A stretch of DNA of 32,000 bases, from contig JASBSB010000007.1 of the NCBI GenBank assembly GCA_030149205.1, forward strand, positions 240,001 through 272,000, written 5' to 3'. Every line of letters starts with the position of its first letter. The stretch's first letter is position 1. Source of the stretch: Candidatus Heimdallarchaeota archaeon. Its GTDB lineage: Archaea > Asgardarchaeota > Heimdallarchaeia > Heimdallarchaeales > Kariarchaeaceae. Below are positions 15,455-18,685 of this stretch, one piece after another. The notes below the pieces were generated by a model. The model had not been told where the DNA came from, ran no database searches, and worked only from the letters and a program-made list of their open reading frames with translations. A program made the position numbers and the translations under genes.

Positions 15455-15464
15455 GAAAGACAGA

Positions 15465-18400
15465 GTCTGCCAAACGGCAATTGGTGGATGCCTCGGCTGG
15501 TTAACCGATGAAGGGCGTGGCAAGCTGCGAAATGCGTAGGGTAGGTGCAGGCAACCTTCGATCCTACGATCCCCTAATGAGAATCTCTTGTACATTCAAC
15601 ATGTGTACAAAACCCGAAAGGGTAGGGAACCCACGGAACGAAAACATTCAAGTACGTGGAGGAAAAGAAAGCAATAGCTATTTCCTTAGTAATGGCGAAT
15701 AAAAGGGAAACAGGTCAAACCGAATGCCTTTGTGAAAACAAAGGTACATGTGGTGTTGTGGACCAAAATAAAGGTGTAAAAGGCTAATCTGAAGTAGACT
15801 GGAACGTCTCGCAAGATAGGGTGAAAGCCCCGTAAGAGTAAACCTTACATCTGTTTGGGATCCTGACTAGGGCGGATTGGATGTTCCGTCCAAACTCGAG
15901 AACTAACTCGAAAACCTAAATATTAAACCAGACCGATAGCAAACTAGTAATGTGAATAAAAGGTGAAAAGTGGCGGTAAAACGCTTATGAAAAGTGCCTG
16001 AAACCAATTGTCTAAATAGTGTAATAGTATGTAAGGAATTACGCTTCATGAATCCAAATTTGGCGACAAATAGTCGAGAATGAAGAGAGACCAGTACTAT
16101 TGCGTCAGTCTTGAAACACTGGCCAGGGAGTTTATTTGAGTGGTGAGGCTAAGGTGATATTGTAACCGTAGGGAAACCAATCAGCCCGCAGCAATTGCAA
16201 GGGGCAACGTGTGAAAGCGCGTGAAATCACTCGAATAAGATGCGAAAGGTGCCGATCTATGCGTGACCAGGTTGAAGTCGTGGGAAACTGCGATGGAGGA
16301 CCGAAGAGGTATTGATATACAACTCATTCTTCTGAGTTGCGTATAGTGGTCAAAGGCCAATCGAGGCGCCTGATAGCACATTCATGCAGAAGTGGAGCCG
16401 CAGTCCAGCGTAGCACGAGTATGAACCGTTGGTAGAGTACAGAAAGTGTTGGAATGGGGAGTAAAATCCTCGCCGCACCATCTAACTCCGAATGACGTTT
16501 CTACTTAGACTGCTGCAGTTGGGTGTGTCGCCGTAAGGGTGGCAACCGAGAAGCGAATAAGCTAGACTTGGGTTAAGGGCCCCAAATGTTGATTAAGTGT
16601 AAAAAGCGAAGGACGTCGTATCGCAAAGACAATGAGGTGGTTGGCTTAGAAGTAGCAATCCACTAACAAAAGTGTAACAACTTACTCATCGAGCGGTACG
16701 GCTCTGAAAATGGACGGGGCTAAAATCAACTCCCGATACCCAAGGGCACTATCTTCGTATAGTGATCCGGTATGCATGCGATTGGCGAGGATAGAAGTGG
16801 GTTAGTGATAACCTGTGGACCTCGTTAATGTGTAGATCCTGGTAGTAGTAGGCAGATTTATGGGTGAGAATCCCATAGGTCGAAAAGGCTAGGGTTCCTG
16901 AACAATGTACATCAGTTCAGGGTTAGTCGATCCTAAGAGTAACCTTAATACGGTCAACTCAAAAGGGAAACAGGTTAATATTCCTGTACCACGTGTTAAA
17001 ACGGCAACGATAGAATAAGATCAGACGCTTGTGGATAGGCGATCTTAGTTACTAAGTTAAGTGTATAACTCCGACGAGTAGTGTTGCACTGAGAATCGGA
17101 AGAAATCACAAATAGGAGCCGCCATGGTTCTATCGTTAATTTCCAAAAGCCCATGAAAATGATCTTATTTATTATAGCACGTGTTCGTACCGAAAACCGA
17201 CACGGGTGTCCTTAGGCTGAAAAAGCTAAGACCTTTTGGAGTAATCTAGGCAAGGGAATTCGGCAAAATAGATGGGTAACCAAGGGATAACCATTGCCTT
17301 TAGCTGTTCACGCGGCCGAAGGTGTCACTAACAAAGGGATCCCGACTGTTTAACAAAAACATAGCAAACTGCGAGGGCGAAAGCCTGTGTATAGTTTGTG
17401 TATCCTGCTCAGTGCTCGTAAGTCAAATCCCCGTTCAAGGGGGCTAAGCTCGGGTTAACAGCGGGAGTAACCATGACTCTCTTAAGGTAGGCAAATGCCT
17501 AGTCGGATAATTACCGACGTCCATGAAGGGACCAACGAGGATCCCACTGTCCCTGCCTAGAATCCAGTGAACCTGCGATCCGGCGAACAGACCGGATAGC
17601 CCAGTTGGGAAGAGAAGACCCTGAGAGCTTTACTACAGCTTCCAGCTGTTTACTTGGTCACCATACAGAGCGTAGTCAGGAGCGTCGAACCAGAATCTCC
17701 GGGTTCTGGGAATGCGATAATGGAACACTGACTATGGTGATTGAGCAAACTTACCCGTTGCGACGGGGACACCTGGTGGTGGGTAGTTTTGCTGGGGCGG
17801 CAAACCTCTGATAAAGAAACAGAGGTGCCCAAAGGTCAGCTCAGGAGGGACAGAAATCCTCCGTAGAGTGCAAGGGCATAAGCTGGCTTTACCGTGAATG
17901 TACCAATAGCGTTCGCGGTTACGAAAGTAGGGCCTAGCGATCCATCCGATTGTCCTTAGTAGACGCGGGTGGTGACAGAAAAGTTACCTCAGGGGTAACA
18001 GAGTTGTCGTGCGTTAGAGTTCCCAATCACTTTGGAATTCTAAATTAATTCTTATTGAACCACACTTCACACATGTTGTAAAGTAATTTATAGGGTCTTC
18101 TTCAGTCCACGATCTTAATAGAATAACCCATATACTATTCGATGATTAAGATTTGGCCTGAACTCTAGCTTTCCTTAAAAAGTAGCTGTAAGAATCAAAG
18201 TGATGAACACATTGACCGCACGGCTTGCTTCCTCGATGTCGGCTCTTCCTCGTTTGGTGTTGCATAAGGCACCAGGAATAGGGTTGTTCGCCCGTTAAAA
18301 GGGAACGTGAGCTGGGTTCAGACCGTTGTGAGACAGGTTGGTTTCTATCTAACTGGGCTGTCGGGTAAGTGTAAGTAAAGTGCCATCAGTACGAGAGGAA

Positions 18401-18685
18401 CGTGGTGTTGTGGCCTCTGGTGTATCGGTTGTCAAAAGGCATTGCCGAGTAGCTACGCCATCTCAGATAAGAGCTGAATGCATCTAAGCTCGAAGCTGAT
18501 CTTAAAAAGACTTACCCACCCTGAAATCATAAAGAATTTTCTTTACCGAGTGTTGGCAACAATGATCGGTGATTTTGGGCGAGTCCATGGGCAAAAGACC
18601 CGTTTGCAATGAATGCGGTGTTAGCGTCGAGTATTTACGAGATGTTTAGCCGACATTTAATTACGGACAAGGCGCTTTGTTGGAA
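15465..18685 (+). rRNA. rrl: 23S rRNA (ends approximate), interrupted by an intron at 18025-18210
   Basis: GGTGGATGCCTCGGCT 5' region; H69 GTAACCATGACTCTCTTAAGGTAG; P-loop GCTGGGGCGG; PTC TAACAG and CCTCGATGTCGGCTC; A-loop; sarcin-ricin loop AGTACGAGAGGAAC. Confidence 0.97.
18025..18210 (+). other. 186-nt archaeal BHB intron in 23S helix 89 loop (between E. coli-equivalent 2477 and 2478)
   Basis: GTTC(18019-22) pairs with GAAC(18205-08); 3-nt bulges CCA and ACA; inner stem ATCACTTTG/CAAAGTGAT. Removal restores GAGTTCCCATTGAC, colinear with E. coli GAGTTCATATCGAC. Confidence 0.9.

What the first reader, a model, noticed from the sequence alone, without database searches (positions are those of the whole stretch)
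18011..18221. ORF-less BHB intron inserted in the apical loop of 23S helix 89, next to the peptidyl transferase centre
Seen in sequence: the 23S is colinear with E. coli from A2453 (18000) to 2477 (18024) and resumes at A2478 (18211), with 186 AT-rich nt in between. The junctions fold into a canonical BHB: outer helix GTGCG/CGCAC, 4-bp helix GTTC/GAAC, 3-nt bulges CCA and ACA, and inner stem ATCACTTTG/CAAAGTGAT. Cutting after the 2nd nt of each bulge restores the H89 loop exactly. Established: BHB rRNA introns are excised by the tRNA splicing endonuclease and are best known from Thermoproteales/Desulfurococcales, often with LAGLIDADG ORFs. Inference: an endonuclease-free intron at this site, in an apparently Asgard-like genome, may be an unreported insertion site or host. 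I cannot verify novelty.
Basis: partly seen in the sequence, partly recalled or inferred. Interest (0 to 1): 0.85.

Follow-up and report, generated by a model that had tools for sequence, protein, structure and literature searches.

The report
Spliced intron in 23S helix 89
The only large-subunit rRNA gene of this Heimdall-group Asgard archaeon carries a 186-base, protein-free intron in the tip of helix 89; it has the shape the archaeal tRNA-splicing enzyme cuts, so it is an ordinary kind of element, at a site many Asgard archaea share but that I found in no paper.

Summary
The covariance model of archaeal LSU rRNA places a net 186-nt insert in the helix 89 (H89) apical loop, at window 18025-18210, between E. 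coli positions 2477 and 2478. The junctions form a canonical 3-4-3 bulge-helix-bulge (BHB) motif.

The intron reading is supported by comparison.
- I found 24 introns at this exact site, 30 to 470 nt long. They occur in the window's own family, three further families of its class and four families of other Asgard classes.
- The 4-bp central helix is paired in 87 of 88 cells, with U-A to C-G swaps between exon and intron.
- Every spliced product restores a 15-nt H89 loop.
- None of the introns has an endonuclease ORF, and the window's intron gives no group I or other Rfam match.
- The genome encodes two EndA paralogues and RtcB.

However, an environmental contig 99.8-100% identical to a genome of the same family carries the circular-23S junction. 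It lacks that genome's 450-nt H89 intron exactly at the predicted cuts.

One addition: the long introns carry a covarying segment that pairs with the H89 5' strand and competes with the BHB.

The scan has noted this site before on other DNA. It is a new member of a known kind, of moderate interest.

The parts
15460..18678 (+). 23S (LSU) rRNA gene, single copy, not linked to the 16S gene
   Evidence: Rfam RF02540, 2377 bits, model positions 1-2987. There is one match in the genome. The 16S gene lies on another contig.
18025..18210 (+). BHB intron, 186 nt, no ORF (boundaries could equally be 18026-18211)
   Evidence: cmscan insert; BHB register i=27; 32% G+C and longest open frame 40 aa; no Rfam family at E<=10 beyond chance-level hits.
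18009..18013 (+). H89 basal stem, 5' strand (GUGCG), pairs with 18217-18221
   Evidence: Sequence; consensus structure line of cmscan.
18217..18221 (+). H89 basal stem, 3' strand (CGCAC)
   Evidence: Sequence; cmscan.
18017..18018 (+). Outer BHB helix, 5' strand (G, A), pairs with U18213 and U18212
   Evidence: Pairs listed. Outer pair 1 is A-U in 22 of 22 cores and outer pair 2 is a standard pair in 21 of 22.
18019..18022 (+). Central 4-bp helix, exon strand GUUC (E. coli 2472-2475)
   Evidence: Paired in 87 of 88 cells across 22 cores, with U-A/C-G swaps at positions 2 and 3.
18023..18025 (+). 5' bulge CCA; predicted cut between C18024 and A18025
   Evidence: The cut position rests on the established EndA rule and on the junction read in contig L108 for a relative.
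18026..18035 (+). Inner helix, 5' strand, pairs with 18195-18204 (9 Watson-Crick pairs plus 1 G.U)
   Evidence: In relatives the first four inner pairs use all four Watson-Crick pair types.
18195..18204 (+). Inner helix, 3' strand
18205..18208 (+). Central helix, intron strand GAAC
18209..18211 (+). 3' bulge ACA; predicted cut between C18210 and A18211
18014..18023 (+). Exon strand of the alternative exon-intron hairpin (UUAGAGUUCC, E. coli 2467-2476)
   Evidence: Present in the MFE fold. The hairpin alone is -9.9 kcal/mol. Covariation table.
18034..18043 (+). Intron strand of the alternative hairpin (GGAAUUCUAA); mutually exclusive with the central helix and overlaps the inner helix by 2 nt
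   Evidence: (p=0.004 against 1000 shuffles). Invariant in the same-genus genome G003.
18140..18166 (+). Block conserved within the genus (CGAUGAUU, 10-11 variable nt, CUGAACUC); function unknown
   Evidence: Alignment with G003. The same block is in G001. A C/D-guide reading is not supported.

Best explanation
Window 18025-18210 is an archaeal bulge-helix-bulge (BHB) intron in the apical loop of 23S rRNA helix 89 (H89), between E. coli positions 2477 and 2478.

Proposed course of events:
1. The pre-23S transcript carries the intron.
2. While the 3' half is still unmade, the 5' strand of H89 (18014-18023) is probably held in a hairpin with intron bases 18034-18043.
3. Once the intron's 3' end is transcribed, a near-isoenergetic conformer forms. 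It combines the H89 basal stem with two outer pairs, a 3-nt bulge, the 4-bp helix GUUC/GAAC, a second 3-nt bulge and a 10-bp inner stem.
4. The splicing endonuclease cuts after the second base of each bulge. Here it is probably a heteromer of a catalytic, crenarchaeal-type EndA and a divergent second paralogue.
5. RtcB joins the exons, giving the normal 15-nt H89 loop, and probably closes the 186-nt intron into a ring.

The intron encodes no protein. It looks like a vertically inherited, fast-drifting descendant of an element that occupies this site in many Asgard lineages.

Shown: the motif, its covariation, the enzymes, and RNA-level removal in a genome of the same family. Inferred: removal in this genome, the order of folding, the enzyme's composition and the circular product.
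For: 1. Position and precision. cmscan places the insert in the H89 loop. Removing it at the BHB-predicted bonds restores a 15-nt loop, as in intron-less relatives, where the flanking stretch is 82 or 85 nt.

2. Recurrence.
- Every genome of the window's own family with this region fully assembled has an insert here: the window's 186 nt, plus 224-470 nt in seven other genomes.
- So do families f3 (221 nt) and f4 (329-339 nt) of the same order.
- In other orders of the class, one f5 genome has 46 nt and five f7 genomes have 68-71 nt.
- Six genomes of other classes have 30-96 nt.
- Sister family f2, G061 and about 27 other sampled genomes have none.

3. Covariation. Across 22 distinct cores the central helix is paired in 87 of 88 cells. 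Position 2 is U-A 13 times and C-G 9 times. Position 3 is U-A 16, C-G 3 and U.G 3. Over all 12 scored pairs, 92% of cells are paired, against 33-50% with slid partners.

4. Content. Intron sequences are not alignable between genera. There is no homing-endonuclease remnant by tblastn. The window's intron gives no group I or other Rfam family.

5. Enzymes. There are two PF01974 (EndA) genes. One best matches the catalytic chains of the Aeropyrum and Pyrobaculum heterotetramers, 3p1z_B and 2zyz_B. The other is divergent and lacks the GxKFG block. RtcB is present.

6. RNA level, in a relative. Contig L108 is 99.8-100% identical to genome G010 of the same family. It joins that genome's 23S 3' trailer to its 5' leader across the processing stem, so it derives from circular RNA. 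It skips the 450-nt H89 intron, reading GTTCAC|ATTGACC. Fifteen more contigs with the family-specific spliced junction also lack the insert, and several are circularly permuted.

7. The BHB conformer lies only 3 kcal/mol above the MFE.
Against:
- Free-energy folding alone prefers the competing exon-intron hairpin.
- The outer helix next to the 3' bulge is only 2 bp, one of them G.U, before an A.G mismatch. The motif therefore leans on the H89 basal stem.
- Cutting by this organism's enzyme, ligation by RtcB and a circular intron are inferred from other archaea, not tested here.
Confidence: 0.9

Rival explanations
1. The 186 nt are a retained expansion segment: they stay in the mature 23S rRNA as an extension of helix 89.
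For: Asgard LSU rRNAs do carry large expansion segments elsewhere, at ES9 and ES39 (PMC7594248). No RNA from this genome was examined.
Against: - In a genome of the same family the homologous 450-nt insert is absent from RNA-derived 23S.
- Fifteen more environmental contigs with the family's spliced junction lack any insert.
- Length runs from 30 to 470 nt with no sequence conservation, while the flanking loop is invariant in length.
- The helices that covary join exon to intron in BHB geometry. An expansion segment has no need of that.
- H89 takes part in the universally conserved L39/H89 tertiary contact near the PTC (abstract of PMC6326782).
Confidence: 0.04
2. It is a self-splicing (group I or group II) intron, or a degenerate one.
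For: Group I introns occur in archaeal LSU genes, often in domain V (PMC6125680). The intron's 5' part pairs with the end of the 5' exon, which superficially recalls a P1 or internal guide pairing.
Against: - There is no Intron_gpI or group II hit at the gathering threshold in the window.
- There is none at E<=10 on the intron alone.
- 186 nt, and 30-36 nt in relatives, is too short for either ribozyme core.
- The base before the 5' splice site is C, not the U of the group I U.G pair.
- The junctions fit EndA geometry instead.
Confidence: 0.01
3. It is an assembly artefact or a recent insertion of a small non-autonomous transposable element whose terminal inverted repeats happen to mimic the inner stem.
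For: The inner stem is a 9-10 bp terminal inverted repeat, and the insert has the genome's low G+C rather than that of rRNA.
Against: - There is a single copy in the genome.
- A homologous intron sits at the identical site in two other assemblies of the genus and in many independent assemblies.
- There is no target-site duplication. Removal must be exact to the base to restore the loop, and it is.
- This is the only 23S gene, so an unspliced insertion would disrupt H89 in every ribosome.
Confidence: 0.01
4. It is a BHB intron that is kept because it carries a functional RNA, for example a C/D-box-like guide or a kink-turn protein-binding site, which is released as a stable circle.
For: A block CGAUGAUU, 10-11 nt, CUGAACUC is conserved in all three genomes of the genus while the spacer varies. 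Rfam gives a chance-level SNORD26 hit there, E=3.2. An earlier, unchecked note reports a kink-turn hairpin in an H89 intron of another phylum.
Against: - The complement of the putative guide has no match in the 23S or 16S genes, and genome-wide hits equal the reversed-pattern control at 11 and 14.
- I saw no second box pair and no terminal stem by eye.
- The motif is absent from introns of other genera.
Confidence: 0.04

Closest known systems
BHB introns of crenarchaeal 23S rRNA genes (Desulfurococcus mobilis; the two ORF-less mini-introns of Staphylothermus marinus; Pyrobaculum, Aeropyrum). Recalled from Kjems and Garrett 1988/1991, cited in PMC3326292; the papers themselves are not held.
   Same: The intron sits in a conserved functional region of domains IV/V of the single 23S gene. 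It has a 3-4-3 BHB at the exon-intron junctions and is removed by the tRNA-splicing endonuclease, with the exon sequence repairing into mature rRNA structure. The S. marinus introns likewise have no ORF.
   Different: The host is an Asgard (Heimdall-group) archaeon, not Thermoproteota. The site is the H89 loop (2477/2478), which I did not find in any paper searched. I recall the classical sites near 1925-1950 and in other parts of domain V, but could not check them. No endonuclease-bearing version was seen at this site in about 60 genomes sampled.
16S rRNA BHB introns of Thermoproteales (Jay and Inskeep 2015, PMC4496867; listed, not read in detail)
   Same: Many rRNA introns of variable length, with and without LAGLIDADG ORFs, patchily distributed among close relatives and recognised by BHB motifs.
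   Different: Small-subunit gene, another phylum.
Non-canonical BHB introns of Asgard tRNA genes
   Same: Same enzyme system and the same genome. Short hairpin introns whose central helix uses a conserved loop sequence of the host RNA (UUCR in the T-loop, GUUC here).
   Different: The host RNA is rRNA. In this family the intron has grown to 186-470 nt and has gained an exon-complementary segment.
LAGLIDADG-bearing intron at 23S position 2450/2451 in other Asgard lineages, within a base or so of the L2449 site that I recall for the yeast mitochondrial omega intron
   Same: BHB intron in the same 30-nt stretch of domain V. It replaces the H89 intron in the sister family, and both occur together in two genomes.
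   Different: It lies 27 nt upstream. Its BHB is relaxed, with no outer helix. The long forms encode LAGLIDADG_3 proteins, whereas H89-site introns encode none.

Membership tests
Archaeal BHB (splicing-endonuclease) intron | Two 3-nt bulges on opposite strands separated by a 4-bp helix and flanked by helices (hBHBh') | tested here: met
   Central helix 4 bp, bulges CCA and ACA, inner helix 10 bp, outer helix 2 bp followed by the H89 stem.
Archaeal BHB (splicing-endonuclease) intron | Cutting after the second bulge base on each side restores the conserved host RNA exactly | tested here: met
   The spliced loop is 15 nt, as in intron-less relatives.
Archaeal BHB (splicing-endonuclease) intron | The motif is maintained by compensatory change in homologous introns | tested here: met
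   Central helix paired in 87 of 88 cells, with U-A to C-G swaps at two positions; slid controls give 33-50%.
Archaeal BHB (splicing-endonuclease) intron | The host encodes the splicing endonuclease and an RtcB-type ligase | tested here: met
   Two PF01974 genes and one PF01139 gene. One EndA resembles the catalytic subunits of heterotetrameric enzymes.
Archaeal BHB (splicing-endonuclease) intron | The intron is absent from mature RNA, with exons joined at the predicted bonds | tested here: inconclusive
   Met for a genome of the same family: G010 against RNA-derived contig L108.
Archaeal BHB (splicing-endonuclease) intron | The excised intron is circularised | not testable with these tools
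   Needs reads across the 18210-18025 junction.
Mobile rRNA intron with homing endonuclease | An intron-encoded LAGLIDADG (or other) endonuclease ORF | tested here: not met
   The longest open frame is 40 aa here and at most 100 aa in any intron at this site. tblastn with the LAGLIDADG proteins of the neighbouring site finds nothing in them.
Group I intron | A match to the conserved catalytic core (P3-P9), and U.G at the 5' splice site | tested here: not met
   No Rfam hit even at E<=10. The base before the splice site is C.
rRNA expansion segment | The insert is retained in mature rRNA | tested here: not met
   The homologous insert is absent from RNA-derived 23S of a genome of the same family and from 15 other contigs of the family. 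Not tested for this genome itself.
Box C/D guide RNA | C and D boxes (and C'/D'), a terminal stem, and a guide complementary to an rRNA or tRNA target | tested here: not met
   There is only one imperfect C-like box and one CUGA. Guide-complement hits equal the control and none lie in rRNA.

The most novel reading that the evidence does not exclude
The long H89 introns of this order may be more than passive passengers. Their 5'-proximal segment is kept complementary to the 5' strand of H89 through at least six compensatory exon/intron changes. It would hold that strand in a hairpin that excludes both the BHB and native H89. Splicing, and therefore formation of H89, one of the helices lining the peptidyl-transferase cavity, would then be gated by a conformational switch during large-subunit assembly. 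That would make the intron a built-in folding timer or checkpoint for the catalytic centre.
Probability: 0.15. Interest if true: 0.7.

Novelty: new member of a known kind. Interest (0 to 1): 0.4.

Why it matters
- For annotation: 23S genes of Heimdall-group and other Asgard archaea are interrupted in the most conserved part of domain V. Uncorrected, this inflates rRNA lengths, distorts LSU alignments and trees, and can be mistaken for an expansion segment.
- For biology: every ribosome of this organism depends on the tRNA-splicing endonuclease, because the only 23S gene cannot form helix 89 until the intron is removed.
- For intron evolution: the site is shared patchily from 30-nt hairpins to 470-nt introns without any homing endonuclease. 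This gives a clean case for asking how protein-free BHB introns persist or recur at one position.
- For ribosome assembly: the covarying exon-intron hairpin is a testable hint that splicing and folding of the peptidyl-transferase region are coupled.

Tried and rejected
- Survey outside the phylum: my one scan of genome contigs was wasted. I wrote six N instead of five between ATCGAC and GGCTTGC, so the pattern misses even my known positives. It gives no information on other phyla.
- Group I or other RNA families in the intron: only chance-level hits.
- C/D-box guide reading of the conserved CGAUGA...CUGA block: no target above control, no second box pair.
- Kink-turn hairpin: the flanks do not form the required stem. 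This was by eye, so it is a weak test.
- Degenerate homing endonuclease in the H89 introns: none found by tblastn.
- Literature: seven full-text searches and targeted reading found no description of an rRNA intron at 2477/2478 or of BHB introns in Asgard 23S genes. The papers read were PMC12918454, PMC8813620, PMC7594248, PMC6125680, PMC11270868 and the 2026 tRNA-intron preprint. Penev et al. say only that 'known intronic regions were removed' and their supplements are not held. Kjems and Garrett 1991 and Tocchini-Valentini 2011 are not held.
- Sequence homology among the introns: none between genera, so no intron tree was attempted.
Full report
**What is there.** The window holds the genome's only 23S rRNA gene at 15460-18678 (+). 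The 16S gene is on another contig and is uninterrupted. A local covariance-model alignment shows 189 nt where the consensus helix 89 (H89) loop has 3, directly after window 18022.

- H89 basal stem, 18009-18013 / 18217-18221
- a 4-bp helix GUUC/GAAC, 18019-18022 / 18205-18208
- 3-nt bulges CCA (18023-18025) and ACA (18209-18211)
- an inner stem of nine Watson-Crick pairs plus one G.U, 18026-18035 / 18195-18204

The strand layout is outer, central, bulge, inner on the 5' strand and inner, central, bulge, outer on the 3' strand. That is the two-fold arrangement of a canonical BHB. Cutting after the second base of each bulge removes 18025-18210 (186 nt, with a 1-nt ambiguity because both sides have an A). 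The product is a 15-nt loop of the same length as in intron-less relatives.

The insert is 32% G+C, like the genome and unlike the exons. It has no open frame above 40 codons.

**Is it more than chance, and is it an intron?** I collected the homologous region from 41 relatives, then the whole class (83 species genomes held), then 400 genomes of the phylum. I fetched about 60 regions.

Where an insert occurs at exactly this position:
- every genome of the window's own family with the region fully assembled (186-470 nt in eight genomes); G001's contig starts inside a homologous intron, with at least 196 nt present
- two other families of the order (221 nt; 329-339 nt)
- one genome of family f5 (46 nt) and five genomes of family f7 (68-71 nt), both in other orders of the class
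- six genomes of other Asgard classes (30, 32, 35, 36, 52 and 96 nt)

About 27 other sampled genomes, one further genome of the class (G061) and the whole sister family f2 have an uninterrupted H89 loop.

In a fixed register, the 22 distinct junction cores give these counts:
- Central helix: paired in 87 of 88 cells.
- Central position 2: U-A 13 times and C-G 9 times.
- Central position 3: U-A 16, C-G 3 and U.G 3.
- These are changes in a conserved rRNA exon matched by changes in the intron.
- First four inner pairs: all four Watson-Crick pair types at each position.
- All 12 scored pairs: 92% of cells paired, against 33-50% when the 3' partners are slid by 1-3 nt.

Intron sequences are not alignable between genera. 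They contain no endonuclease remnant. The window's intron matches no Rfam family, group I included.

**Enzymes.** The genome has two EndA genes and one RtcB gene. One EndA carries the usual Tyr/His/Lys context and best matches the catalytic chains of the Aeropyrum and Pyrobaculum heterotetramers. The other is divergent and lacks the GxKFG block. A heteromeric, broad-specificity enzyme is therefore likely. That composition is inferred.

**RNA-level evidence.** As a substitute I scanned metagenome contigs for the spliced exon-exon junction in its family-specific form, AUUGACC instead of AUCGACC.

Sixteen contigs came back, all lacking the insert. Several are circular permutations of a 23S rRNA, or have the junction at both ends.

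One of them, L108, is 99.8% identical over 2605 nt and 100% over 309 nt to genome G010, a member of the window's family with a 450-nt H89 intron.
- The contig joins that genome's 23S 3' trailer to its 5' leader across the complementary processing stem. Genomic DNA cannot give that join, so the contig derives from circularised 23S RNA.
- It reads GTTCAC|ATTGACC where the genome has GTTC-ACA-[intron]-GGAT-AAA-TTGACC. The intron is missing exactly at the BHB-predicted bonds.

No contig is closer than about 94% to the window's own exons. For this genome, splicing therefore remains an inference from homology.

**A second structure.** Unconstrained folding does not choose the BHB. The MFE (-57.0 kcal/mol) pairs the 5' strand of H89 (18014-18023) with intron bases 18034-18043. 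That hairpin alone is worth -9.9 kcal/mol. The BHB-constrained optimum is -54.0 kcal/mol.

The hairpin is not a peculiarity of this sequence. In all twelve introns of 186 nt or more from the order, the best complement to the 14 exon bases before the splice site lies within the first 51 intron bases. Against 1000 shuffles, p is 0.001-0.005 in three lineages, 0.02-0.12 in the g2-g4 genera, 0.04 in f3 and 0.2 in g6.

The pairing follows the exon through double changes at E. coli positions 2467, 2468, 2470, 2473, 2474 and 2476. The partner was chosen as the best complement, so the table leans towards pairing; the shuffle test is the control. The 3' exon gives no such signal.

The hairpin excludes the central helix and part of the inner helix. 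It is therefore an alternative conformer, not part of the splicing motif. I read it as an early co-transcriptional fold that the BHB later displaces. Whether it has a function, such as timing H89 formation, is open. The short introns of 30-96 nt have no room for it, so it is not needed for splicing as such.

**Context in the gene.**
- The sister family f2 has no H89 intron. By my inference it includes the two complete Heimdallarchaeum genomes: genus g10 holds single-contig genomes of about 3.3 and 3.1 Mb, matching the 3.32 and 3.08 Mbp of PMC8813620.
- Family f2 instead carries a 335-423 nt BHB intron 27 nt upstream, between A2450 and A2451. It has a GGGG/CCCU central helix, a covarying inner helix and no outer helix.
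- Two genomes of another order carry both introns.
- In other classes the upstream site holds 665-791 nt introns encoding LAGLIDADG_3 proteins.
- Alignments against RNA-derived contigs show no other large insert in the window's 23S.

**Comparison with what is known.** This works like, and passes every sequence-level membership test for, the BHB introns long known in crenarchaeal rRNA genes. It fails the tests for group I introns, endonuclease-bearing mobile introns, expansion segments and C/D guides.

What may be new is the site and the host range. I found no paper describing an rRNA intron at 2477/2478 or BHB introns in Asgard 23S genes, but the older literature is not held. Earlier agents of this scan reached the same reading for H89 inserts in other Heimdall-group genomes and in DPANN archaea. 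My loci with 362 and 397 nt probably overlap two of those notes. The find is thus recurrent within this scan, and by their notes the site is used beyond Asgard.

**Verdict.** It is a new member of a known kind, at an apparently undescribed but widely shared site. The covarying exon-intron hairpin is the one feature worth an experiment.

Noticed in passing
Window-equivalent 17997/17998 (E. coli 2450/2451); loci L011, L013-L016, L019-L020, L022-L027, L029-L030, L041-L042 (family f2); L034, L037; L066, L067, L074, L087: A second BHB intron site lies 27 nt upstream of the H89 site, inside the GGGGUAAC sequence of the peptidyl-transferase ring. It has a GGGG/CCCU central helix, 3-nt bulges, a covarying inner helix and no outer helix. 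It replaces the H89 intron in the sister family and coexists with it in two genomes. Three long forms (665-791 nt) encode LAGLIDADG_3 proteins.
   Followed up: partly
L101-L116 (metagenome contigs); L108 against L117 = G010:C25:1500-9500: Environmental contigs of this family's 23S rRNA are circularly permuted, or carry the same junction at both ends. L108 joins the 3' trailer to the 5' leader at the processing stem. This fits circular 23S (or circular pre-23S) RNA in this Heimdall-group family, as reported for other archaea in PMC12918454.
   Followed up: partly
Window-equivalent about 18333 (near E. coli 2600) in G017, G024, G025, G026, G037, G042, G046; about 18310 in G065: BLAST matches split there, with about 150 nt (genus g11) or about 320 nt (G065) of extra sequence. 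These are further candidate introns in domain V. In other classes many matches stop at window-equivalents of about 18351 and 18364.
   Followed up: no
window 18140-18166; L003 and L004 (same genus): The block CGAUGAUU, 10-11 variable nt, CUGAACUC is conserved in all three genomes of the genus. It resembles a C box plus D' box at canonical spacing, but no target, second box pair or terminal stem was found. The CUGAACUC part can also pair with the exon GAGUUC.
   Followed up: partly
window 18019-18024 plus 18211-18216 (the spliced H89 loop GUUCCCAUUGAC; GUUCAYAUCGAC in relatives): The H89 loop resembles a tRNA T-loop (GUUCRANYC). Earlier notes say this genome has many T-loop (59/60) introns that use UUCR as central helix. 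The H89 intron uses GUUC, one base out of register. A shared route of origin is possible but untested.
   Followed up: no
Genus g14 genomes (G048, G050, G051, G053, G054, G061, G065), matches to window 18374-18494: A fragment of about 110-120 nt resembling the 23S region downstream of the sarcin-ricin loop occurs at several places per genome, on different contigs. These may be rRNA-fragment repeats or extra partial copies.
   Followed up: no
L043 = G047:C310:1-900: The 23S fragment on this contig reads like a bacterial sequence (GGGGATAACAGGCTGATC). It is probably a contaminant contig in that assembly.
   Followed up: no
G000 contig 2, 630352-631803 against window (contig 8): The 16S and 23S genes are unlinked single copies. 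The 16S gene (1452 nt for a 1478-position model) has no intron.
   Followed up: partly
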